From: Octopus vulgaris
Lineage: Eukaryota
NCBI GenBank assembly: GCA_951406725.2
Contig: OX597819.1
Span: 104,532,001-104,596,000, forward strand
Direction of reading: 5' to 3'
Length of the DNA stretch: 64,000 nucleotides
The notes beneath the pieces are model-generated. The model saw nothing but the letters and a program-made list of their open reading frames with translations. It searched no databases and was not told the DNA's origin. This document shows, one piece after another, positions 17,121-63,043 of this stretch. Position 1 is the first letter of the stretch; each line of letters opens with the position of its first letter. The translations under genes and the position numbers were made by a program.

Positions 17121-17124
<4 letters not shown>

Positions 17125-17439
17125 TGCAGCGTGGAAGGTGTTTATAAGCCATTTAAGAAACACACAAAAGCCGTTCGATTCACTTCAACAATTAAGTTTA
17201 ATTTGTCAAAATATTTTCGTCGCTAAAATCCGCGACCTGTTCACTGACAAAAATCCGTGAACAGGTCGCGGATTTTAGCGACGAAAATATTTTGACAAAT
17301 TAAACTTAAATGTTGAAGTGAATCGAACGGCTTTTGTGTGTTTCTTAAATGGCTTATAAACACCTTCCACGCTGCAATTGTTTTCGTTTCAGCACACGAT
17401 CTCAGATCAAATTACTTGCTATGCGAGTACATCTCCGTA

Positions 17440-17440
<1 letters not shown>
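17121..17440. mobile_element. Fold-back non-autonomous element (PLE pseudo-LTR-like) in (TA)n, with 124-bp inverted arms
   Basis: 17121-17244 is the reverse complement of 17257-17380 with one mismatch. A related copy lies at 27509-27757. Confidence 0.85.
17202..17251 (-). ncRNA. Minimal type I hammerhead-like motif with G3-C8 core
   Basis: UUUGUCA GUGAACA G GUCGC-GGAUUUUA-GCGAC GAAA AUAU UU UGACAAA: 7-bp stem I, 5-bp stem II, palindromic AAUAUU stem III. Confidence 0.7.
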
Positions 17441-17533
<93 letters not shown>

Positions 17534-17764
17534 ACACGAATTACCGGCTTGTTAGAAATAAAAATCCTCAAATAAGCCACTATCTCACTGAAAACATAAC
17601 AGACCAACGAGCACAGAAATTAACTTATTAACTCGACTAATAGCCGCAAAATGAGGTAATAGATATACCTGTATCATGGTTTCGAATTCTGGGTTTTTCT
17701 CTTAATTCTCCTAAGCAGGTTTTACTAAATAGCTCGAAGCAATAGCTTTACTCGCTACGTCGTG

Positions 17765-19298
17765 TCTGTTAAACTGCCCTCGAAGCCAGCTACGAAATCT
17801 CCCTGCAAAACATGGAAAGAATCACACTATCGGAGAGCAACTAATTAAATCAGCTATCTCTATATTCTTAAAAACCGTACAACAAAAAGATGATAGAGAT
17901 GTCAGAGCCATGCTACTCAGTAATAACACTGTCTCCAGCAGAATTGATGAAATGGGGCAAGGTGTTGAAAACCAGTTTCTTGAGACATTAATATCACGAA
18001 AATTCTCATTACAAATGGATGAATCCGCATTCCGGGACAGTGAGGCCTTGTTATTGACTTTTGTGAGATATATTGAGCACGATGCTTTTCATGAAGAGAT
18101 ATTTTGCAAATCATTGGAAACAACCATAACTGCAAAGGATATCCCCAGGAAGCTTAAACATTACTTGGATGGAAACAAAATTCCGAAAGCAAAATTACTG
18201 TCATGTGCGGCAGACAGTGCACCTGGTATGATGGGCAAGAAAACGGGATGCTTAGAAATGATGATGGATGAAAATCCAAACATGTCGATTGTCCATTGCG
18301 TCATACACCGAGAAAACTTCGTTGCCAAGAAACTGTCCCCTGTTCTTACGAGCTGTGATCAAGTGTGTCAATACCATTAAAGCAAATCCCAAAGCCGAAC
18401 GTCTTTTTAAGCAGTTTTGCGCAAATCAAAGTGTCGAGCATGTTTGATTATTGCTTCATACAGAAGTAAGGTGGCTATCAAATGGAAACAGCCGAAAAAG
18501 GTTCGTGGAGTTATTTGATCAGCTTAACGACTTTCTCGGTGATAAGTGTGAAATGGAAATGCTGTCAACAACGGATGGAAAAGCGTTTGTCAGTTATTTG
18601 ACATCTTTGAGAAACTTGGAAACTTGAAGAAACAACTCCAAAATGTTGATGCGAAAGTAAATATGTTTGGATTCATTACAACCTTCGAAATATGCCAAAA
18701 AAATGTTTCCACAAGAAATTTCAGTCAGTTGTACTGGTTGAGTAAATGTGAGATAACGAATGATGCTGCCACTGTAATTATTGACCATTTGAATATCTTA
18801 AAAAAGGGCTTCAACGATAGATTTTGTGATTTGAAGGCAATGAATTTTTCCCTCTTGGTTAACTCAACCACTGCTGATTGACGTTTCAGATGCTGCAGTT
18901 CAATACCAAGAAGTGTTATCAGACTTACAACATGCTGAATCAGGGAAAACATCGTTTAAATTGAAAGGTACAAATATGTGGCTATGTGACGAGGTTGAAA
19001 GAAAATACCCCAACATCTCTACATCAGCAAGAGAACTATTGACTCATTTTCCTTCGTCTTATTTGGTCGAATGTGAATTCAGTGTAGTTAACAATTTGCT
19101 GGAAGCCAAGCGAAACCGGCTTGAAATTACAAAGCGTGACTATTTACGAAATTGTCTCTTCAAATCAAGGATCTATCTCGTATGCACCAGGCACAAGGTT
19201 CTCACTAAATTAGTCAGCCAGGCAATTGAATTAAAAATCGTGTTTCTATATTCCATATTAAAAAGTGGTGTACCGGAAAAATAGGCTGGGAAACACTG
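17765..19298 (+). mobile_element. Decayed hAT (Charlie/Buster, ZBED8/SCAND3-like) DNA transposon
   Basis: Motifs HTIGEQLIK, LSNNTVSSRIDEM, FSLQMDES, DSAPGMMG, HCVIHRE, LLHTEVRWLS, FPSSYLVECEFS, KRNRLEI are split by stops and frameshifts. The right end GGGAAACACTG resembles a Charlie TIR; no left TIR seen. Confidence 0.88.
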
Positions 19299-20042
19299 CT
19301 TTACAGTATAAATATCCACAATTTTTACAGAGATGTTTCATTGATGAAACCGTCCAAGTATAACTTTGGGACGTATTTTAAAACTGAAATAGTATCCAGA
19401 AATCATATGGCATGCGACAAGTGCCAAAGAGGTGTCATCTAAGTACTTCGGACAAGTTCACGATGACCAACAAAAAGTCTTTGGAAGCTCTAAAGCGAAG
19501 CTTCCACGATTTATGAAATTCTGTGGTATTAACGGGTTATGTTACCCCTGTACTATCAAGAACCCTAAGAATGTATGAGCGCTACTCTTTTCGATAAGTT
19601 GTCTAAAGTATTTGTCTATCTCTTTGTTAAGGAGTGGCAGGAAGAGATAAAAGGCTGAGTTTGATGTATCAAAGCAGAGTGGTAGAAGGTTAGTGACTTT
19701 ACAACAGATGTCATTATATAGATATGTTATTCTGTCCACGACACAGACAACACATGCACGCGCGCGCGCAGGCACACACACGCGCACACACATATACACG
19801 CGACCAAGAAACGTTAAGTTGAGACATACGATAACTAAAGAAAATGTTTTGTACGTGTGTGTGTGTATATATACCTTCGAAACACGCATTGAATCGAACC
19901 AGGGGCAGCTGATGAAGGGGAATTTTCCTTGTATTGTTTGTCCTGTACTCTGTTTTTTCGTTGTTAAAAAAAGTCCGTTTCCTTGTTTGATTTTATGTTT
20001 TCGTTTCTCGTTGTGTTCTACGTTTATTTGTGGTGTCCTGTA

Positions 20043-20094
<52 letters not shown>

Positions 20095-20274
20095 TGTATA
20101 TATACATATAGATGTAAGTATGTACATATATGTATGTATATATGCATATGTTTTATTTATTTATCATATTGTGTATATATATATATATTCTAGCAAAAAC
20201 TGTCCGACGAACGGGAACGTGAAACTTTGTTGAATTTTCTGCTTCTTTTAAATAAAGTATATATATATATATAT

Positions 20275-22688
20275 GACACCGACACTACTCTCGGATCACA
20301 ACATGGTAGAGCTGACCATGTACGGGCCAAAAGAGAGCACGGACATGCAGCCTACAAGAAACCCTCAGAATCTTTCCAGCTTGAACTACCATAAGGCAAA
20401 CTGGAAACAAATTGAGAAAGAGATCCTCAAACAAAACTAGCCTAAATGTCTCTCCTCGCCAGACATCGACGTGAAACTTCAAAAATTCATGTCTGTAATG
20501 CAAGCCATATGCTACAAATGTGTCTCAGAGAGAAAGGCCACTGTACACAAGAACAAAATCCCCAGAGAGAGGAAAATTTTAATGAGACGGCGTACAAAAA
20601 TTTCAAATCGCCTAAACAAACAGATTGAAAGCAGTGAAAAGTCCCGCCTAAAAATAAAACTTTTGGAAATTGAAAAATGTCTGCAACTCTCCCATGAAAA
20701 GGAAAGAGCAGACAAAGAAGCCTGGGCTATAGACAACATAAAATCTAACCCCAGAGCTTTCTACAGGTATGCCAAAGAAACAGCTACGGTGCACTGTAGA
20801 ATAGGGCCACTCCTTGAAAAGGATGGCACACTTACAGGAAAACCAATGAGGGTAAGTGAAATACTGAATGAGCAATTCAAGAGTGTTTTCACTCCACCCC
20901 TTGGGCATCTCCAAATCACCAATCCAACTGACTTCTTTACCACTGCAGATATAAAATCAGAGGCGGCGACGATAGATTACATCGATATAAAGGAAGACGA
21001 TGTAATAAAGGCTATAGATGAAATGAAAACAGACTCAGCTACTGGCCCCGATGGATTCCCGGCAATCCTCCTAAAAGCATGTAAGAGAGTCCTAGCAAGA
21101 CCACTGCAGTTCCTCTTTCAGAGCTTCCTTGCAACTGGCAAACTTCCAGGAAAACTGAAGGAAGGTAAAATATGCCCCATTCATAAAGGAGGCAGCAGAG
21201 CGGAGGCCAAGAACTACAGACCTATCTCTCTGACCTCACACATCAGCAAGGTCATGGAACGAATAGTCAGAAGGAAACTGATCACCTTCCTTGAAGAAAA
21301 TGACTTGCTGCCCGACACCCAACATGGTTTCCGACCAGGGAGAAGCTGTTTAACTCAGCTCTTACAACACTATGACTGGGTGCTGAAACGGCTGCTCAAC
21401 CACTCAAATGTGGAAGTGATATATCTCGACTTTGCAAAGGCCTTTGATAAAGTCGATCATGGAATGATATGTCACAAACTGCGTGATCTCAACATAGTTG
21501 GAAAACTGGGAGAATGGCTTCATGACTTTCTGAAAGATAGAAGTCAGGTGGTAGTGGCCAATGGGGCCACTTCCATTAACACGCAAATAGTGAGCGGTGT
21601 TCCGCAGGGCACTGTTCTGGGTCTACTACTGTTCATAATGGCCCTCTCAGACATGCCCTCAGCCACGCAGAGAGCCACGATCACAAGTTATGCAGATGAT
21701 ACAAAAGTTTCACAGGCAATACAGAACCCTGAGGACACTAAACGCCTGCAATGTGAGCTGGACAAAATATACAAGTGGGCTGAAAAGAATAGCATGCAGT
21801 TCAATGCTGGAAAGTTTCAAGCTTTATACTATCAGCATGCAAAACTAAATGCAATACCCAATGAATACACTGGACCCGGAGGAATAGCAATCCCAGAGGC
21901 ACAATCAGTGCGTGACCTGGGTATTTACATGAGTGATGACGCAACCTTTCGTGTACATGTTGCTAAATTGGCAATGAAATGTAGACGACTGGCCGGATGG
22001 ATTCTCAGAACCTTTAGAACAAGAGAACAAGAAACCATGATGGTCCTCTGGAGGACACCTGTCCTAAGCCACTTTGACTATTGCTCTCAGTTATGGTCAC
22101 CATCCAGTGTCAAGTTGATCACAGAGCTCGAGGCGATCCAGCGTAGCTACACGAAGAAGATAGCCTCTATGCAGAATGTAAGCTACTGGGAAAGACTCAA
22201 GAGATTAAAACTATATTCCTTGGAGCGTAGGCGGGAAAGATATGCCATAATATACATCTGGAAGATCCTGGAGGGAAGCGTCCCAAACTTTGGCATCGAG
22301 AGTTACACAAATGCCAGAACTGGGCGCCACTGCGTGGTGCCTAGGACTCCAAATTTGCCATCAAGATGTAGGACAAGATACTGTGATAGCCTGGGCTTCC
22401 GAGGCCCACAGCTCTTCAATATCCTCCCGAAGAACCTGAGAGACCTGCATGGGGTGGATGCAGATGTCTTTAAAATGGAACTGGATCTCTTCCTGTCAGG
22501 TGTCCCAGATGAACCAACTTCACGGCAGGAGGTGCAGATGAGGGCAGCTGCATCGAACTCTCTCATGCACCAAATGGCAGTTGCTAAAAAGCTTTCGTGA
22601 AGTAAATCCAAGTAGCAACACCAAATGGCGGTGCCCCAGCATGGCCACAGCTCATGAGCTGAAACTAGAATCAATCAATCAATCAATC
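20275..22688 (+). mobile_element. 5'-truncated CR1-group (CR1/L2/Daphne-like) LINE inserted in (TA)n
   Basis: Begins in the APE endonuclease tail (LLSDHNMV), continues through RT and a short 3' UTR to an (AATC)n tail at 22668-22688. (TA)n lies on both sides. Confidence 0.92.
20471..22600 (+). CDS. Non-LTR reverse transcriptase (LINE ORF2, N-terminally truncated)
   Basis: 709-aa uninterrupted ORF with NYRPISLTS, QHGFRPGRSC, YLDFAKAFDKVDH, GVPQGTVLG, YADD and YWERLKRLKLYSLERRR. The in-frame upstream part is cut off by a single TAG at 20438-20440. Confidence 0.92.
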   Translation: MKLQKFMSVMQAICYKCVSERKATVHKNKIPRERKILMRRRTKISNRLNKQIESSEKSRLKIKLLEIEKCLQLSHEKERADKEAWAIDNIKSNPRAFYRYAKETATVHCRIGPLLEKDGTLTGKPMRVSEILNEQFKSVFTPPLGHLQITNPTDFFTTADIKSEAATIDYIDIKEDDVIKAIDEMKTDSATGPDGFPAILLKACKRVLARPLQFLFQSFLATGKLPGKLKEGKICPIHKGGSRAEAKNYRPISLTSHISKVMERIVRRKLITFLEENDLLPDTQHGFRPGRSCLTQLLQHYDWVLKRLLNHSNVEVIYLDFAKAFDKVDHGMICHKLRDLNIVGKLGEWLHDFLKDRSQVVVANGATSINTQIVSGVPQGTVLGLLLFIMALSDMPSATQRATITSYADDTKVSQAIQNPEDTKRLQCELDKIYKWAEKNSMQFNAGKFQALYYQHAKLNAIPNEYTGPGGIAIPEAQSVRDLGIYMSDDATFRVHVAKLAMKCRRLAGWILRTFRTREQETMMVLWRTPVLSHFDYCSQLWSPSSVKLITELEAIQRSYTKKIASMQNVSYWERLKRLKLYSLERRRERYAIIYIWKILEGSVPNFGIESYTNARTGRHCVVPRTPNLPSRCRTRYCDSLGFRGPQLFNILPKNLRDLHGVDADVFKMELDLFLSGVPDEPTSRQEVQMRAAASNSLMHQMAVAKKLS

Positions 22689-23706
22689 ATATATATATAT
22701 ATATAAGTAACGTATGTATATGTTTATGTACTAACATGAAATAGTGTGCAAGTGTTTGTAGGTATGTATGGGTACACACACACACACACACTCATACACA
22801 CAGACACACACATTTAAGTCAAATGTGAAACATTTTTGCATAGCTGCTTAACTTGCTAGAAATAACAGCCAAACCATCCTCCATTTCACACGCTGCCGTC
22901 TTAAAAACGGTGGGTCACTTTGGATAAGAAGCAGAGCCAGTATATTTGCTTTACTTTTTTATTGCTTTTATTTTCCCTTTGTGTTTTTTCTTTGATTTAC
23001 TTTCATTGGTTCAGTCCGATATATTTCTTGAATTCTGTACGAATATTAAAATAAAACACTACGTACACATATACATTAATGCTATTTAGTTAATACACAA
23101 TTATATCCATAAAGAAAACAATGAGTGGCAGACCCCATAATATCATACATTTTTATGATTAAGTCAAAACTTTACCTCCTCCCCGTCCTCCTCCTCCATG
23201 TCTTCGTCCTCCTCGTCCTCGTCCTCCTTTTGCTTCTCTCTCTCTCTCTCTCCCTCTCTCTGTTGCTTTCTCTCCCTCTCCCTTTCTCTGTCTCTATCTC
23301 TCTCCTCCCCCGACTCTTCACCATTGACACTCCTTTCTATTTTCCTGTTTGCGACACATTCTTTTACTCTGTCTTTCTCCTTTCACCCTTTTGCTCACAT
23401 CTCCTCGCCCTCTCTATCTTTCTCTCTCTTTCTCCCTCTCCTTCTTTCCTTCCTTCATATCTCCCTCCCTCTTTATATACCTTTCTATTTTCCTGTTTTC
23501 GACTCATTCTCTTTTACACTGTCTTTCTCCCCTTCACTTACCTATCGCTATTTCTCTCCCGTCTCCCTTCTGTCTTTTCATCTCTTTCTCTCTCACTCAT
23601 TCATTCACACACTCACTCACATTCTTCCTCTCTGCCTCTCTCTTTTCCTCCCTCCCTCCCTCCCTCTCTCTCTCTTTCTACCCCTCTCTCTCCCTCACAC
23701 TCACAC

Positions 23707-23889
23707 AGTTATTTTACAAACAGCGTTTCAACCGAAATCATCCAGAATCAACCGGATTTTTCTAGTTTGGAGTTGGAGCAGACGACAGCAGCGTTCAACA
23801 GCAGATATCGTCTGCTAAATGCTGAGAGTGAAATCTCTTTCGCTTGATCTTCGAAATCTTCGCGAAGTCATCTAAAGTCAGCATTGAAG
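23707..23889 (+). other. Candidate noncoding first exon, copy 1
   Basis: Follows a long CT-rich tract, starts at Inr-like CACAGTT, ends at donor-like AAG|GTAAAG, and is identical in copy 2. Confidence 0.4.
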
Positions 23890-24469
23890 GTAAAGTACCT
23901 TATCAATTCACCTGAAAAGTATTCATTATTTCTTTAATACCTATAAAATTGTATTTGGTCAAGTCATTTATCACAAAGTTGAAAAGACCGCTTTCTAAAG
24001 AGGAAATTGGTATTGTTTTGTATCTTATCAGTCTTAGGTATTGGCATTGCTCGTCTCTGCTTTATTCACGGAGAAACCATTCTAAAGTTTAAACTGATTG
24101 TAAAGTAAGCGACCTTATTAAATTCATTAAAAAATATTGAACGAAGTCTCAAATTATATCTTTTAACTAACTCGGTCCAATATCTCTCTGTATCTTGATT
24201 ACACTCGTACACACACACACATACACACGCGGTCACATTTATATAAATTTATAAATAAGGATAATATCGATATTTAAATATCGATATTATCAAATGGCCA
24301 GCATGGGAAAAAAATACCATACAAAGGTAATAATTTTTTACTACTAAAATTAAGGGTGTCTGAGAGACACCACCATGCCGAAATAACAGGCAAATTCTTG
24401 ACTCTAAAAACCACGTAGATGTTCATATCGCACCATCAGATAGTTATATATACACACACACACACGCGC

Positions 24470-24519
<50 letters not shown>

Positions 24520-24520
24520 G

Positions 24521-24559
<39 letters not shown>

Positions 24560-24769
24560 CCACACACATACGTAGATGGTATTTGGCGAATTTGCTTGTG
24601 GAAGGCACACTCAACAGAAACCAAGACTTCGATTTAAGGATTATGCACAGTCCTCGTTGAAGACATGTGAAATATGTGGGGTCAATTGAGGAAGTTGTGC
24701 TTGTTACCACCAATGAAGTGGATATTTTGGGGAAAAACACGCAGAAATTAAGCGATCTGCTGGAAAACG

Positions 24770-24957
24770 CACCGCTAGTGTAGTGGACTGAGGAAGCTTA
24801 GTCTGCAATATCTGCGGACGAGTACGTATGTAAAAAACTGAGCTCATTACTCACCAGTGAAGTCACAAAGGTAAAGCATTCATTTGTCTGAGAGTACAAT
24901 GTTCTTAATGATCAGTGACAGTCTTTCTCGGTCACGGTTGAACGGCCTCATCATCAT
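24770..24957 (+). mobile_element. RTE (BovB-like) LINE 3' tail fragment, duplicated at about 28065-28258
   Basis: LVCNICGRV...ELITHQ.SH zinc motif plus a 3' UTR similar to the reverse strand of 63178-63412. Confidence 0.7.
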
Positions 24958-25084
24958 ACATACATATATATACAAAAATATATGCATATTCATATACATG
25001 CATGCATACATCCACACATACATACATACATACATAAATACATACATACATACATACATACATACATACATACATACACACATA

Positions 25085-25256
25085 AGAGTGGCTGTGTGGT
25101 AGGAAGCTTGTTTCCCAACCAAATGGTTTCGGGTTCAGTCCCACTGCGTAGCATTTTGGGCAAGTGTCTTCTACTATAACCTCGGGCCGACCAAAGGATT
25201 TGGTAGACGGAAAATGAAAGAAGCCCGTTGTATATTTATATACATACATATATGCA

Positions 25257-25288
<32 letters not shown>

Positions 25289-25498
25289 AGTTGTGTGTCT
25301 GTGTTTGTCCCCCTACCATCACTTGATAACCAATTTTGATGTGTTAACCATCCCCGTAACAATAGCGGCTCAGCAAAAGGGACCGATAGAATAAGTACTA
25401 GGCTTACAAAGAATATGTCCTGGGGTCGCTTTGTTCGACTAAAGGTGGTGCTCCAGCATGGCCACAGTCAAATGACTGAAACAAGTAAAAGATTAAAA
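25085..25498 (+). mobile_element. CORE-type SINE, nearly full length
   Basis: A/B boxes, TTGGGCAAGTG, internal (TG)n, and tail CAGTCAAATGACTGAAACAAGTAAAAG. Confidence 0.9.
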
Positions 25499-25643
25499 GG
25501 TCGGTGAGCTGCTGGCAGAATCGTTAGCACTCCGGGCGAAATGCTTAGCGGTATTTCGTTTGCCGCTACGTTCTAAGTTCAAATTCTGCCGAGGTTGACT
25601 TTGCCTTTCATTCTTTCGGGGTCGATTAAATAAGTACCAGTTC
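25499..25643 (+). mobile_element. 3'-truncated Meta-type SINE abutting the CORE SINE tail and the duplication breakpoint
   Basis: Matches 11227-11366 and stops at AAGTACCAGTT, just before copy 2 of the duplication begins. Confidence 0.85.
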
Positions 25644-26050
25644 TCTCTGTTCCCTGACTCTTCATCATTGACACTCCTTTCTATTTTCCTGTTTGCCACT
25701 CATTCTTTTACTCTATCTTTCTCCTGTCACCCATTTGCTCACGTCTCCTCGCCCCCTCTCTCTTTCTCCCTCTCCTTCTTTCCTTCCTTCATCTCTCCCT
25801 CCCTCTTTATAAACCTTTCTATTTTCCTGTTTTCAACTCTGTCTTTCTCCCCTTCACTTACCTATCACTATTCCTCTCCCGTCTCCCTTCTGTCTTTCCA
25901 TCTCTTTCTCTCTCTTTCTCTCTCACTCATTCATTCACACACTCGCTCACATCCTTCCTCTCTGTTTCTCTCTGTTTCTCTCTCTCTCCCTCCCTTCCTC
26001 TCTCTCTCTCTTTCTCACCCCCTCTCTCTCTCTCTCTCCCTCACACACAC

Positions 26051-26233
26051 AGTTATTTTACAAACAGCGTTTCAACCGAAATCATCCAGAATCAACCGGA
26101 TTTTTCTAGTTTGGAGTTGGAGCAGACGACAGCAGCGTTCAACAGCAGATATCGTCTGCTAAATGCTGAGAGTGAAATCTCTTTCGCTTGATCTTCGAAA
26201 TCTTCGCGAAGTCATCTAAAGTCAGCATTGAAG
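26051..26233 (+). other. Candidate noncoding first exon, copy 2
   Basis: 183 nt identical to 23707-23889, with the same donor-like site. Confidence 0.4.
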
Positions 26234-26568
26234 GTAAAGTACCTTATCAATTCACTTGAAAAGTATTCATTATTTCTTTAATACCTATAAAATTGTATTT
26301 GGTCAAGTCATTTATCACAAAGCTGAAAAGACCGCTTTCTAAAGAGGAAATTGGTATTGTTTTGTATCTTATCAGTCTTAGGTATTGACATTGCTCGTCT
26401 CTGTTTTATTCACGGAGAAACCATTCTAAAGTTTACACCGATTGTAAAGTAAGCGACCTTATTAAATTCATTAAAAAATATTGAACGAAGTCTCAAATTA
26501 TATCTTTTAACTAACTCGGTTCAATATCTCTCTGTATCTCTCATCTCTATCTCTGTCTCGATTACACT

Positions 26569-26606
<38 letters not shown>

Positions 26607-26616
26607 CACACACACA

Positions 26617-26689
<73 letters not shown>

Positions 26690-27442
26690 TGGTGGGGAAA
26701 ATTAGTAACAGTGTAAAATGTGTAATTTCCGATATCTCGTTATTTTCTCCCTACCAGTTTGAAATTATTGCATTATCATTGGGACTAAAACTTGGTCAGT
26801 GTAGTTGTTGTTGTTGAAGGGGAGAGAATTCGAAACATAGTCAGGTATCAGGTACATTTTTATAAAAAAGTTTTCTTCAATTTTGACCTGATTGTAATTG
26901 AGGCTGCTAATAAAATATCGAGATAATTTTTGGTGTTAAGCTATCAATATTCTTTTCAGTGTTGGATGCCAAGTCAATTTTTTTCTATAATGTCTAAAAT
27001 GGGGTAAAATGAGTAATTACTAATTTCAATAATTTTTTCTCTTTAACTACTTGGTGAGTAAATATATCACGAAAAGAGAAATTTCATTGGATTGTGAAGA
27101 AGCTATAGAGAATATTTTATGCTGATTGTTTTTTTAGTCGAGTTTCGTTAATTTCATATCAAATGCTATTTTTCTTTGATCTTCTTTCGTTTCATTTAGA
27201 TATTTAATATTTTTTTGTTTTTGTTTTGCATTTCTGATCTTTCTGATGTCTAGGGATGGATATTGATGTGTATACGTCTGTTTTCAAATGTGATTCTGGA
27301 GAATTCAAGCGCAAACTTGCCTCATCTTGGTTTACTCATTTTGCCCCAGCCAAATTTGTTGTTTTTATGCTCAAAGAGAAATAGTGATCAAATCATGTTA
27401 TATTTTTAATGCAGTTAGGGAAGCCATTTGCTAAGCTCTCTC

Positions 27443-27508
<66 letters not shown>

Positions 27509-27511
<3 letters not shown>

Positions 27512-27754
27512 CGGAGATGTACTTGCACAGCAAGTGACCTGATCTGAGATCGTGTGCTGGAACGAAAACAATTGCAGGGTGGAAGGTGTTTATAAGCCAT
27601 TTAAGAAACACACAAAAACCGTTAGATTCACTTCGACATTTAAATTTAATTGGTCAAAATATTTTCGTCGCTTTGAGACCACGACCTGTTCACTGACTCT
27701 AACGGTTTTTGTGTATTTCTTAAATGGCTTATGAACACCTTCCACGCTGCAATT

Positions 27755-27757
<3 letters not shown>
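27509..27757. mobile_element. Second copy of the fold-back PLE-type element, with partial inverted tail
   Basis: Homologous to 17121-17440; 27698-27757 is an inverted copy of about 27567-27626. Confidence 0.85.
27653..27697 (-). ncRNA. Hammerhead-like motif with G3-C8 core, second copy
   Basis: GUCA GUGAACA G GUCGU-GGUCUCAAA-GCGAC GAAA AUAU UU UGAC. Core and stems are retained while loop II differs from 17202-17251. Confidence 0.65.
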
Positions 27758-27843
<86 letters not shown>

Positions 27844-28333
27844 ACGAAGATATATATATATCCACACACATACGTAGATGGTATTTGGCGAACTTGCTTG
27901 TGGAAGGCACCCTCAGCAGAAACCAAGACTTCGATTTAAGGATTATGCACAGTCCTCGTTGAAGACATGTGAAATATGTGGGGTCAATTGATGAAGTTAT
28001 GCTTGTTACCACCAATGAAGTGGATATTTGGGGGAAAAATACGCAGAAATTAAGCGATCTGCTGGAAAACGCACCGCTAGTGTAGTGGACTGAGGAAGCT
28101 TAGTCTGCAATATCTGCGGACGAGTACGTATGTGAAAAACTGAGCTCATTACTCACCAGTGCAGTCACAAGAGTAAAGCATTCATTTGTCTGAGAGTACA
28201 ATGTTCTTAATGATCAGTGACGGTCTTCCTCGGTCACGGTTGAACGGCCTCATCATCATACATATATACATACAAAAATATATGCATATTCATATACATG
28301 CATGCATACATACACGCATACATACACACATAC

Positions 28334-28364
<31 letters not shown>

Positions 28365-28392
28365 CATACATACATACATACATACATACATA

Positions 28393-30609: not shown

Positions 30610-30656
<47 letters not shown>

Positions 30657-30752
30657 GAAGGAAAAAATGGTATAGATCAGTGTGTGATTCATGGATTTGG
30701 TTTGCAAGATTCTTTATATAAGTTCGTGTGTTGGAGCATATTTTGTTGTGTT

Positions 30753-31008
30753 TGGGGAGAGTCATTCTCTTTTAGTGCCTTATTATTTAACACACTCACC
30801 GGTAAAATTTCCACTTATTTCTTATTTTTATTTTCTAGAATTTTCGTTGCGTCTTGCAACCTTTTCAATAGACTTTTCAAGAGTCAAGACTATTGAAAAG
30901 GTTGCAAGACGCAACGAAAATTTTAGAAAATAAAAATAAGAAATAAGTGGAAATTTTACCGGTGAGTGTGTTAAATAATAAGGCACTAAAAGAGAATGAC
31001 TCTCCCCA
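30753..31008. repeat. 119-bp inverted repeat (fold-back PLE-type element in (TA)n)
   Basis: 30753-30871 is the reverse complement of 30890-31008 with one mismatch; 18-nt spacer. Confidence 0.92.
30834..30872 (-). ncRNA. Hammerhead-like motif with U3-A8 core; mirror copy at 30890-30926 plus
   Basis: UCUA UUGAAAA G GUUGC-AAGAC-GCAAC GAAA AU UC UAGA. Stem III is the loopless palindrome AAUU. Confidence 0.55.
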
Positions 31009-31574
31009 GATACAACAGTATATATATATATATATATGTGTATGTAAGGCTAGATGTGTGTGTGTACATGAATGTAGTTTATGCACACCACAAATTAGCC
31101 CGCATGTCGCTCAAATTTTATAAGGACATTCGTCACGACCCTAGCTGTATTTTCGTCAAATTATTTTCCCCCGAGGCACCCGCGAATTGCGGTAAATAAT
31201 TTTGAGCCATCAATTTTCACGGCGGAGAAATCCACTATAGTGACGCCATTATTGTTTACAACATGAGTTAAGACCTCTTCTAGCGACGGCGTAAAGAGAG
31301 GGAAGGAGAGGGAGCGAGAGGGAGAGAGATAACAGATTTTTAAAATTTCGTCTTTTTACTGAGTGATTGACAGGCGCAAACAGACAGACAGGTGTTGTTA
31401 TGTATGTATGTATGTATGTATGTATGTATGTATGTATGTATGTATGTATGAATGTATATGTGAATGGCTTCAGTCACACACACACACACACATACACACA
31501 CACACACACACACGAGCATGTATGAGTATAAAACACATACATGCAATGTGTGTGTTGACCGTGTGTATATATAT

Positions 31575-54510: not shown

Positions 54511-54862
54511 TAACATACATACATACATACACACGGGCAAAGGTATGTACTATCACAGAAGTCAGCTGCCCTGCAGATATGAATATCTCTTTGCAAATCA
54601 ATGAAAAAGAGGATACCTCCAGTTTCTATATCCTCACTATGAATTCACATTCATACTAATAATAATTGGAGCACTAGGTTTGTTAGTTATAGGAGAATCT
54701 GGATAAGCTGGAATTTTCAGAAAAAGAAATCGACTGGATAATTCATACAATTCGCACAATCTGTGAGTGGAACAGTAAAAACCTTTGGCTAGTATATTGA
54801 TTTTTGTTATAGTTTATTGTTATAGTATATTAATTTTTGTTTTGGCTAGTATATTGATTTTT

Positions 54863-56750
54863 GTAACCCACCGCCTAAGCAATTTTCTAGACATCCTACT
54901 GAAACCCTTGCTGAAATACATCAAAAGTTTCATTAGAGATGATTTAGACATGCTAGAACATCTACCAAAAACAATTAATGAAGAGGCAATATTGGTTACC
55001 CTCGATGTTATCAATCTTTACACCAACATCCCCTATGACTGTGGAATAAAAGCAATTAAATTCTGGTTGGAAAAGTACCCCGAAGTACTCCCGGAACGCA
55101 TAAACCAGGTCTTTATTATTGAATCCTTAAAATTTATACTTCAGAACAATTATTTCCTATTTGATGACACATATTATCGTCGGAAATACGGAATTGCGAT
55201 GGGAACGAAAGCAGCTCCTGTTCTTGCGAACCTAATAATGGGTTATTTTGAATTCCCCTTATAATTCCTCTTCAGAAATATGGTTACCCATTTTACCTCT
55301 ACATAAGAGAAAATTGGAAGAGATACCTAGGTGATTGTTTTATCATTTGGAAAGAGAACATCGACAAACGTTTGGACTTCAAATCAACAATAAATGATAT
55401 AAATAGTAACATTCAATTCACAATGGAATATTACAAAGAACAACTCCCATTTTTAGACATCATGATAAAAAAAGTTAACAATGAAATCATAACTGACATT
55501 TATTATAAATCAACTGATTCAAAACAATATCTTCTCTTTAACTCATGCCACCCGAAACACATCAAAATAAACATCCCTTTCAATTTGGCAAAAAGAATTT
55601 GCGCAATAGTGTCTGGTAGAGCAACTCGGGACCTTCGTCTTCAATACCTCAAAACAACGCTTATTGAAAGACAATATCCACCCTCACTTATCGACGAGGG
55701 AATGAAACGTGCCAAACAATTAGACGCAAAAACACTAAGAACAACAAAACATAACACCACACCTCAACTCAAAACATTACTATTTATATCAACACACAAC
55801 CCCAGAAACTGTGAGGCATTCAACACTATTTTGCAAACTCTTCCTTTACTAACTAGAGATCTAAAAATGAACGACATCCTGAAAACACACAAACTCATCA
55901 AATGCAAAAACAAGACAAATCGCTAAATGCGAAGCTTTACAAAACAACCACGAAACCAACGGTTGAAAAATGTAGACGATCAAACTGTGGAACCTGCACC
56001 AACCTACTTGAAGGCTCAGATTTCCTTTTCAAACAAGGACAGAGGTTCACAATTAAAACTAGTTTCACTTGTGCCTCTGAGAACCTAATTTATGTAATAA
56101 CCTGCTCGGGTTGCGAACACAACTATATTGGACAAACGGGTATGACTTTGAGAAAGAGAACCACTCTACATAAAGAGTAAATCCGTTTCCCGCAATACAG
56201 GCAAATTCTTCTCAGTGAACATATAGAAAAATGTGCAGATAACATCAAACCAAATTTCACAACCTTCCCCTTCTACCAGTGCAAAGACACAATCTCTCCA
56301 CAAGAACGTTTAAATAAAGAAACTTTTTTCATTGAAAAATACAGAACACGTCTCAATATGCACGCATAACCAACTTTTATCTTTTTACATATTTCAGTTC
56401 ACGATTACATCACTGTACATAAATCCCCTCACTAAACAAGGTTTTCGAAACTTGTTTTGTACATATATATTCCCCTCCTATTACCGAAAGCTGAACAGTT
56501 ATCTCCTTTACCCACAACAATAACAATAATAACGACAACCCATTACCTCCATTTATTTATCTACTTGTGAAGTCGTCATTCTCTCGTGAATTTCATCACA
56601 CACAAGATGGACAAAATTTCTTCTTAAGAAAAATTACATACTTAAATAAGTAAAACATAATATGAATAGCAATAGCGAAACCGTTCGATATATTAAAAAT
56701 TATATGAAAACTATATAAGTGTGCGTATTTTCCTTTTTAAATTTCTCATA
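54863..56750 (+). mobile_element. 5'-truncated Penelope-like retroelement (RT + Cys linker + GIY-YIG, Neptune-like), decayed
   Basis: THRLSNFLDILLKP, LDVINLYTNIP, GIAMGTKAAPVLANLIMG, WKRYLGDCF (YLDD mutated), LPFLDI, NSCHP, CRRSNCGTC, NLIYVITCSGCEHNYIGQT. Confidence 0.92.
56654..56694 (+). ncRNA. Degenerate A3-U8 hammerhead-like motif in the PLE 3' terminal region
   Basis: AUGAAUA GC-AAUA-GC GAAA CCGU UC GAUAUAUU; stems I and III carry mismatches. Confidence 0.5.
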
Positions 56751-62218: not shown

Positions 62219-63043
62219 TATATTGAGGGTACTACTATTCGTAGATACCAACACGCTAAGAGGGACCAATGCGGTCAAAACTACTAAAAATAAACAAAAT
62301 TTTACCGAATGCAAAACTTCAAAACACATCATTTTAAAAAAGAATTCAGTTACATACCACATGTGATTTCGCATTTAAATGCAGAATATGCATTTCTATG
62401 TTCATCAGTGCAACAAACTCAAGAAATATAATAGAAAAACATAACATTACAAGCTCGATAGCCAACCGTAGAATTCGTCGTAGCATGTCCGAATGTTTAT
62501 CTTTATATATCTATGAAAATGGCGGGCTCATTTGCAATGCATTTCGGTTACAAATTGTCTATTCGGAATAAAAATTCAGTATTGAACTATTCCGGTGGAA
62601 AATATAAATTAACAATTGAGGATAAAATCTTTAAAAGAAATTATCAGTAGTCAGCGTGAAAAACCTCGTAAGAGAAAAAATCCGTAAATTCTTCCTCATT
62701 GAAAATATTCATTTATATTATATTGAGGGTACTACTATTCGTAGATACCAACACGCTAAGAGGGACCAATGCGGTCAAAACTACTAAAAATAAACAAAAT
62801 TTTACCGAATGCAAAACTTCAAAACACATCATTTTAAAAAAGAATTCAGTTACATACCACATGTGATTTCGCATTTAAATGCAGAATATGTTGGTATCTA
62901 CGAATAGTAGTACCCTCAATATAATATAAATGAATATTTTCAAAGAGGAAGAATTTACGGATTTTTTCTCTTACGAGGTTTTTCACGCTGACTACTGATA
63001 ATTTCTTTTAAAGATTTTATCCTCAATTGTTAATTTATATTTT
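62212..63043. mobile_element. 500-bp HHR-bearing unit in partial tandem plus inverted arrangement (PLE pseudo-LTR or retrozyme-like)
   Basis: 62221-62390 is identical to 62721-62890; about 62889-63043 is an inverted copy of about 62598-62753. Confidence 0.85.
62349..62414 (-). ncRNA. Type I hammerhead ribozyme motif, canonical core
   Basis: GUUGCA CUGAUGA ACAU-AG-AAAUGCA-UAUUC-UGCAUUU-AA-AUGC GAAA UCACAUGUGG UA UGUAAC: 6-bp stem I, palindromic CACAUGUG stem III, GUA site, A.C mismatch at the base of stem II. Confidence 0.75.

What the first reader, a model, noticed from the sequence alone, without database searches (positions are those of the whole stretch)
17202..27697. G3-C8 inverted-core hammerhead family conserved in two independent insertions
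Both copies keep GUGAACA-G, the 5-bp stem II (GUCGC/GCGAC and GUCGU/GCGAC, a wobble-preserving change), GAAA-AUAU-UU and stem I, while loop II differs (GGAUUUUA versus GGUCUCAAA). That pattern fits structural constraint. The predicted site is an unusual UUU triplet. I know G3-C8 mainly as an engineered rescue mutant.
Basis: partly seen in the sequence, partly recalled or inferred. Interest (0 to 1): 0.75.

Follow-up and report, generated by a model that had tools for sequence, protein, structure and literature searches.

The report
Swapped-core hammerhead in Penelope-like retrotransposon
The two motifs are leftover end-pieces of a young, very abundant jumping gene whose built-in hammerhead RNA motif naturally carries two paired core letters swapped (G3-C8 instead of C3-G8), a form I found in print only as a laboratory mutant; it likely cuts itself slowly, but cutting is untested and the new copies were made from uncut RNA.

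Summary
Both minus-strand motifs (17202-17251, 27653-27697) are minimal type I hammerheads with a G3-C8 core. They are not a free-standing ribozyme family. Each is a solo pseudo-LTR of one Penelope-like retrotransposon (RT plus C-terminal GIY-YIG, open frame of 1,000 aa or more), with at least 5,469 pattern matches in this 2.8-Gb genome. All 19 young long-ORF loci fetched carry G3-C8, so it is the element's wild type. Two sister families here have C3-G8 and U3-A8, and relatives in metagenomes have C3-G8 (8 of 11) or U3-A8 (2 of 11). The 3:8 pair therefore covaries naturally and G3-C8 is probably derived. The GUCGU 'wobble' is ordinary CpG decay, and UUU sites are already listed for such ribozymes. 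Cleavage is untested. Only 2 of 97 placed insertion arms start near the predicted cut; 47 start about 22 nt upstream of the core, so uncut RNA is the template. A small G3.G8 clade also spread. Verdict: a new natural core variant of a known ribozyme class, probably slow and dimer- or protein-dependent. One key paper (Lunse 2017) could not be read.

The parts
17121..17441 (.). Insertion 1: solo pseudo-LTR of the Penelope-like element (young subfamily, loop GGAUUUUA) with an inverted partial copy at its 5' side, in (TA)n
   Evidence: 96-98% identical to the pLTR of full-length copy L272; folds as one long hairpin, -221 kcal/mol
17202..17251 (-). Complete minimal type I hammerhead motif, G3 at 17244, C8 at 17239, extra G at 17237, 7-bp stem I, predicted cut between 17209 and 17208 (UUU)
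   Evidence: stems I and II form with pair probabilities 0.66-1.0 when folded alone; cut site inferred from hammerhead numbering
17257..17441 (+). Plus arm of insertion 1: hammerhead truncated at G3 (no 5' strand of stem I), 5' UTR, AUG at 17349, first 31 codons of the RT ORF, long 3' end
27508..27757 (.). Insertion 2: solo pseudo-LTR (older subfamily, loop GGUCUCAAA) on the minus strand with a short inverted arm (27694-27757), in (TA)n; AUG at 27600 minus
   Evidence: 89-91% identical to L272 pLTR
27653..27697 (-). Decayed hammerhead motif, G3 at 27693, C8 at 27688, 4-bp stem I, CpG-decay U at 27681, predicted cut between 27657 and 27656
   Evidence: the hammerhead stem II has pair probability only about 0.1
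30655..31030 (.). Palindromic solo pseudo-LTR of a sister Penelope-like family with a U3-A8 core (U3 at 30868 minus), used here as the comparison
   Evidence: 2,631 genome matches; linked to a GIY-YIG ORF 48% identical to P0003 in L391

Best explanation
Both motifs are solo pseudo-LTR fragments of one young Penelope-like retrotransposon whose hammerhead natively has G3-C8, and that hammerhead likely still cuts its RNA, slowly and only as a dimer or with help from the element's protein. Shown: the motif lies in the pLTR, with the predicted cut 56 nt upstream of the AUG of an RT-GIY-YIG ORF; G3-C8 is the state of the young ORF-bearing copies; sister families keep the 3:8 pair as C-G or U-A; insertions have two 3' ends about 32 and 93 nt into the ORF and 5' ends clustered about 22 nt upstream of G3. 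Inferred: RNA starts near that 5' cluster; the element's protein nicks AT-rich DNA and primes reverse transcription at the two internal sites; the template is uncut RNA, giving short, often inverted copies in (TA)n; the swap keeps the 3:8 pair that positions the 2'-OH of residue 8; two RNAs pair through AAUAUU to build stem III; U17 avoids the G3-C17 pair that would trap the fold. Cutting would trim tandem or read-through transcripts at a low rate or late in the cycle. The two window copies themselves are probably dead.
For: pLTR runs into the ORF in L271 and L272; 1,000-aa frame with Pfam GIY-YIG above cut-off. 19 of 19 young long-ORF loci L241-L259 carry G3-C8. Cross-family alignment of 16 motifs: 3:8 pair C-G 10, U-A 3, G-C 2, unpaired 1, with U4, G5, A6, G10.1, C11.1 and GAAA invariant. 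0 of 35 structured columns carry a subfamily-level change while the ORF DNA of subfamilies differs by about 15%. No second letter at 5% or more at positions 3 or 8 in contigs of 4 of 4 runs laid, under four organism labels. 3' ends short 78, long 83, in between 5; direct repeats of 7 nt or more flank 28 of 60 loci, some of low complexity. In print: the C3G/G8C double mutant partly restores cleavage of an anole PLE hammerhead, which needs the protein (PMC11167929); PLE minimal hammerheads cut weakly as dimers (PMC4209133); a C3-G17 trap is proposed and G3-C8 works better without C17 (PMC3884650, data not shown there).
Against: No cleavage data. 2 of 97 placed arms start within about 4 nt of the cut and neither is clean. 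A G3.G8 form, which breaks the pair, spread in a clade of older ORF-bearing copies (7 of 55 units, one unreliable). Core conservation is not clearly above the rest of the pLTR (p=0.07). The AAUAUU duplex is worth only -0.2 kcal/mol, the minimum-energy monomer extends stem I with a G3.U17 wobble, and the predicted co-fold of two copies is not a clean double hammerhead. The extra nucleotide is G, outside the H consensus of PMC4209133, though G is usual in this clade. The C3-G8 sister family has C at position 9, so cores in this clade drift.
Confidence: 0.62

Rival explanations
1. The motif is a real hammerhead descendant but no longer cuts. It is kept as a folded element of the pLTR (promoter, protein-binding or 5' UTR structure) or simply carried along by the master copies, and G3-C8 arose by two steps of a C-G mutation bias.
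For: Insertions come from uncut RNA. A G3.G8 clade propagated. C-to-G changes are common in the ACA context (32 of the first 100 at a control site). Conservation is close to that of the whole pLTR. In anole, catalytic mutants do not affect insertion and no reads end at the cut site (PMC11167929).
Against: The 3:8 pair is kept in 15 of 16 motifs across families while both letters change. The youngest, intact lineage has the paired state. U4, G5, A6, A9, G12, A13, A14 and the palindrome show no subfamily change.
Confidence: 0.3
2. A free-standing small ribozyme element (retrozyme-like), cut to unit length and circularised, that spreads by itself.
For: Most copies are about 200-300 nt and lack an ORF; 7 of 99 arms share one identical inversion junction, so a short palindromic unit may itself have been copied.
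Against: The unit is the pLTR plus the first 31 codons of the PLE ORF. Ends map to the RT start sites and to about -22, not to the cut site. No 200-400 nt head-to-tail array of the unit in the window.
Confidence: 0.05
3. A chance look-alike inside a repeat, not a hammerhead homologue.
For: Rfam reports no hammerhead; the motif is short.
Against: Relatives have a hammerhead of the same build (extra nucleotide, palindromic stem III) in the same place behind the endonuclease gene: 11 credible motifs in 41 metagenome loci, all on the sense strand, 0 antisense hits; the sister family has one in both pLTRs.
Confidence: 0.03

Closest known systems
Minimal type I hammerheads (min-HHR) of metazoan Penelope-like elements (Cervera and de la Pena 2014, PMC4209133)
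   Same: Position in the pLTR; short stem I; extra nucleotide between 9 and 10.1; G10.1-C11.1; palindromic stem III implying a dimer; pairs on opposite strands 100-700 bp apart; thousands of solo copies; UUU site listed for Crassostrea.
   Different: Core pair G3-C8. That paper reports C3-G8 and U3-A8 only in the text and Fig. S2 rows that I read. The extra nucleotide is G, outside its CUGANGAH consensus.
Anole Poseidon PLE hammerhead (Frangieh et al. 2024, PMC11167929)
   Same: pLTR overlapping the ORF start; two RT start sites inside the ORF giving an optional tail; AT-rich targets; uncut RNA as template.
   Different: There G3-C8 is an engineered partial-rescue mutant and the cut lies 26 nt downstream of the AUG; here G3-C8 is wild type, the cut would lie 56 nt upstream of the AUG and the tail is about 61 nt. 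The protein here has a Zn-finger linker, which Penelope/Poseidon lack.
Natural U3-A8 core covariants (Perreault et al. 2011, PMC3088659)
   Same: Natural exchange of the 3:8 Watson-Crick pair.
   Different: U3-A8 is two transitions and keeps a purine at 8; G3-C8 is two transversions and puts a pyrimidine at 8. Section 8 of that paper names only U3-A8.
Neptune/Nematis-type C-terminal-endonuclease PLEs (Craig et al. 2021, PMC8557442)
   Same: RT, CX3CxxC linker, GIY-YIG with CCHH-like residues, inverted 5' copy, (TA)n targets.
   Different: I did not place the element between Neptune and Nematis; it has DKS in place of DKG and a microsatellite-rich 3' UTR of 1-1.4 kb.

Membership tests
Hammerhead ribozyme (type I) | Core U4 G5 A6, A9, G12 A13 A14, A15.1-U16.1, H17 | tested here: met
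Hammerhead ribozyme (type I) | Canonical letters C3 and G8 | tested here: not met
   G3 in 135 and C8 in 123 of 139 copies; no C3-G8 among the first 100 of 116 non-G3 copies (hand count)
Hammerhead ribozyme (type I) | Watson-Crick pair between positions 3 and 8 | tested here: met
   G-C here; C-G 10, U-A 3, G-C 2, unpaired 1 across 16 motifs. Five of the 16 came from scans that required or rewarded the pair; the 11 did not
Hammerhead ribozyme (type I) | Stems I and II around the core | tested here: met
   pair probabilities 0.66-1.0 for copy 1 and 0.76-1.0 for intact L272; stem II fails in decayed copy 2
Hammerhead ribozyme (type I) | Stable stem III (monomer or dimer) | tested here: inconclusive
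   palindrome present; isolated duplex only -0.2 kcal/mol; co-fold not a clean double hammerhead
Hammerhead ribozyme (type I) | Self-cleavage 3' of residue 17 | not testable with these tools
   no raw RNA reads offered; no genomic footprint of cut templates
Rfam hammerhead models | Match to a curated covariance model | tested here: not met
   no positive control with a C3-G8 minimal motif was run, so the miss may reflect the minimal build rather than the swap
PLE min-HHR | Located in the pLTR of a PLE, extra nucleotide after A9, G10.1-C11.1, palindromic stem III | tested here: met
Penelope-like element, EN+ | Single ORF with RT motifs and C-terminal GIY-YIG | tested here: met
   P0003, 1,000 aa, GIY-YIG 25.5 bits against cut-off 22.6; RT motifs read by eye (DVVSLY, YVDD), Pfam RVT_1 not hit; homologues labelled reverse transcriptase
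Penelope-like element, EN+ | pLTR, 5' inversions, optional tail, AT-rich targets | tested here: met
Neptune or Nematis clade | RT phylogeny with reference PLEs | not tested
   only the Zn-linker and CCHH-like residues were seen; no named reference set was aligned
Retrozyme | Non-coding 150-400 nt tandem unit bounded by hammerhead cut sites, circular RNA | tested here: not met
   unit overlaps the PLE ORF start; ends do not map to the cut site; circles not testable; the family definition is from the abstract of PMC7229834 and recall

The most novel reading that the evidence does not exclude
A thousands-of-copies, recently active animal retrotransposon uses a working hammerhead whose 3:8 pair is inverted, the form so far described as a lab rescue mutant. 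One genome then holds three families of one clade with C-G, U-A and G-C at this pair. The swap may be a selected slow setting that lets full pLTR RNA survive as the reverse-transcription template. CUGANGA-based searches would miss this whole class.
Probability: 0.45. Interest if true: 0.6.

Novelty: new variant of a known kind. Interest (0 to 1): 0.42.

Why it matters
It gives natural, family-level covariation at the hammerhead's tertiary 3:8 pair, including the transversion swap, within one retroelement clade. The three scaffolds (C-G, U-A, G-C) are a ready test set for the open question of what PLE hammerheads do: whether cutting is needed, and how slow it may be. The insertion ends independently match the anole in vitro result that uncut RNA is the template. 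It also shows that descriptor searches built on C3/U3 undercount hammerheads by thousands in a single genome.

Tried and rejected
1) The window's two broken Neptune-like ORFs (54.8-56.4 kb plus; 62.1-60.0 kb minus) as the autonomous partner: none of 30 loci of that family matched the G3-C8 pLTR. 2) L120 as the partner: its endonuclease is cut off where the element's 3' UTR begins. 3) G3.G8 as an ancestral intermediate from C3-G8: C8-to-G is 46 of the first 100 of 256 non-C8 copies, but a control C in the same ACA context gives 32 of the first 100 of 144 (hand counts; p=0.06-0.09). In the tree most G.G copies sit inside a mixed clade and the base is unresolved (20 near-identical young rows dropped, units without a detected motif left out). 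Inconclusive, more likely derived. 4) A second G3-C8 family: a general pattern gave 52 matches against 28 control; the recurring hit has no stem I and lies in a SINE-like repeat. That pattern demanded G/C at several stem II places, so other families are not excluded. 5) RNA evidence: no RNA holder listed and only contigs; contigs show no start, end or strand. This is no evidence either way. 6) Three hits were dropped before counting (L433 inside the ORF; two weak L448 hits). 7) A 3' splice site just upstream of the motif (CUAAC, pyrimidines, AG) as the cause of the 5' cluster: no shared upstream exon is seen in the short copies; a transcription start fits better but is untested. 8) Literature: nine searches found G3-C8 only as an engineered mutant; Lunse et al. 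2017 (PMC5785218) is not held.
Full report
1. Observation. Copy 1 has G3 at 17244 and C8 at 17239, a 7-bp stem I, an extra G after A9, a 5-bp stem II with loop GGAUUUUA, GAA, the palindrome AAUAUU and U17 at 17209. Copy 2 (G3 at 27693) has a 4-bp stem I, GUCGU-GCGAC and loop GGUCUCAAA. Copy 1 is one arm of an inverted repeat (17121-17441); copy 2 has a short inverted arm; both lie in (TA)n. The genome is 2.8 Gb in about 30 large contigs, and the best protein homologue is labelled Octopus vulgaris by its source, so I call it octopus-like. A pattern with positions 3 and 8 free matches 5,469 places, control 0; a pattern in the downstream tail matches 7,445 arms. Exact patterns miss decayed copies, and inverted pairs count twice.

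2. What the repeat is. Following the sequence upstream led to L198, where a microsatellite-rich UTR joins the motif to the end of an ORF with a Zn-finger linker and GIY-YIG endonuclease. Searching with that protein found a young family with many identical hits. All 19 young long-ORF loci fetched (L241-L259) carry G3-C8 with the loop of copy 1; the twentieth, older L260, has G3.G8. L241 holds a 1,000-aa open frame (P0003; GIY-YIG above the Pfam cut-off). In L271 and L272 the repeat runs directly into the ORF start MAYKHLPR. The window copies are therefore solo pseudo-LTRs: 5' UTR with the hammerhead, the AUG 56 nt after the predicted cut, and the first codons. Their 3' ends fall at two points, short 78, long 83, between 5, about 32 and 93 nt into the ORF. 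This is the 'tail' signature that Frangieh et al. tie to two internal RT start sites (PMC11167929, parts 1-2 of 4 read). Direct repeats of 7 nt or more flank 28 of 60 loci, some of low complexity.

3. Is G3-C8 a real covariant? A sister family (55% identity over most of the ORF; frames of about 1,310 aa) has C3-G8, with C at position 9, in both pLTRs. A third family, present in the window at 30655-31030, has U3-A8 (2,631 matches) and sits behind a related endonuclease in 1 of 30 loci, with a weaker hit in a second. In 41 metagenome loci of the clade, a scan that did not require the 3:8 pair gave 14 sense hits and 0 antisense. After dropping 3, the 11 left are C3-G8 8, U3-A8 2, C3.A8 1, G3-C8 0. 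In the 16-row alignment the pair is C-G 10, U-A 3, G-C 2, unpaired 1; stem II counts there are circular because the scan required stem II. G3-C8 is thus probably derived in this family. Contigs of four runs under four organism labels show no other letter at 5% or more at positions 3 or 8 (laid at 85% identity or better).

4. Variation inside the family. In 139 copies not chosen on the core, no core, stem I, II or III column has a non-CpG second letter at 10% or more (0 of 35), against 4 of 7 in loop II (p=0.0003) and 13 of 141 in the rest of the pLTR (p=0.07). The nearest thing to a core exception is C8-to-G (11 of 139). Genome-wide it is 46 of the first 100 non-C8 copies, against 32 of 100 at a control C in the same context (hand counts, p=0.06-0.09). 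Most of it is mutation bias, but several older ORF-bearing copies on C16 share it within a mixed clade. UUU is not special: the U3-A8 family has it, as does Crassostrea in Fig. S2 of PMC4209133.

5. Does it cut? Untested. Folding gives stems I and II in copy 1 and intact L272, with a G3.U17 wobble extending stem I and a marginal stem III duplex. Copy 2's stem II is not favoured, and the whole of insertion 1 folds into one long hairpin, so the window copies are probably inert. Of 99 arms chosen only by the downstream tail (first 100 places on C1), 97 could be placed: 9 extend beyond -26, 47 start at -25 to -14 relative to G3, 17 at -13 to 0, 11 inside the motif, 2 near the cut (one an internal deletion, one an inversion junction), and 11 further downstream. 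Templates were uncut RNA with a 5' end near -22, probably a transcription start (inferred). This agrees with the anole result that cleavage is not needed for insertion and that the motif needs the protein. Published chemistry says the swap is tolerated: C3G partly rescues G8C (PMC8495972 passages; PMC11167929). PMC3884650 (passages) proposes a C3-G17 trap and says G3-C8 does better without C17, which fits U17 here.

6. Best reading. A slow, dimer- or protein-assisted hammerhead that is wild type in an active PLE lineage (0.62); a non-cutting relic kept as structure (0.30); an independent retrozyme (0.05); chance (0.03).

7. Prior art. PMC4209133 (parts 1-2 of 4, supplement file 2 part 2 and term search; file 1 could not be searched) defines this build and reports C3-G8 and U3-A8. 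PMC3088659 (section 8 and passages) reports natural U3-A8 only; its supplements were not read. PMC8557442 (passages and supplement term search) defines the PLE clades. PMC6765202, PMC3376415 and PMC10085705 were seen as passages. Nine searches found no natural G3-C8. Lunse et al. 2017, recalled as describing about 150,000 PLE-linked variants, is not held and could contain it. Unchecked notes of this scan report G3-C8 motifs in phages and in two other Penelope-type elements; I did not test them. They suggest the swap recurs and is not unique to this family.

8. Verdict. A new natural core variant of a known ribozyme class in a known type of element, well supported as sequence and unproven as catalyst. 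Interest 0.42.

Noticed in passing
window 30655-31030: Palindromic solo pLTR of a sister PLE family with a U3-A8 hammerhead (extra G, AAUU palindrome, UUU site); 2,631 genome matches.
   Followed up: yes
window 54779-56370 (+) and 62212-60002 (-): Two broken Neptune-like PLE ORFs (RT, Zn linker, GIY-YIG); about 18,500 first-look candidates in the genome.
   Followed up: partly
window about 59830-59780 (-); L455-L466: The 3' UTR of that Neptune-like family holds a hammerhead-like motif with A3-U8, a 2-3 bp stem II and an extra nucleotide in the GAAA segment (176 matches, control 0). If real, all four Watson-Crick pairs occur at 3:8 in this genome; the fold is atypical and may be degenerate.
   Followed up: partly
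L320:1137 and 5725: Very young sister PLE with intact frames of about 1,310 aa and tandem pLTRs; its C3-G8 hammerhead has C instead of A at position 9 and a non-palindromic stem III.
   Followed up: partly
L480, L514, L515, L517, L518, L521, L553: Seven arms share one identical inversion junction, suggesting a short palindromic non-autonomous unit that was itself amplified.
   Followed up: no
L483, L489, L540: Some non-inverted copies have an extra G before the 5' cluster at about -22, as reverse transcription of a cap would leave; numbers are small.
   Followed up: no
G000 C16, about 1-15 Mb: An older subfamily (loop GGUCUGAAA) is concentrated on one contig and includes the G3.G8 copies.
   Followed up: partly
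window 17733-19200 (+) and 20441-22597 (+): A broken hAT-like transposase remnant (by eye; no Pfam hit) and a 719-aa LINE RT frame (Pfam RVT_1) lie between the two copies and are unrelated to them.
   Followed up: no
window 23300-24230 and 25640-26570; 24560-25080 and 27860-28390: Two local duplications of about 900 and 500 nt around copy 2.
   Followed up: no
window 62599-63043: 155-nt arms, 99% complementary, 135 nt apart, upstream of the minus-strand Neptune-like ORF; no hammerhead found in it.
   Followed up: no
family-wide: C-to-G changes in an ACA context are nearly as frequent as C-to-T in these repeats, an unusual mutation spectrum.
   Followed up: partly
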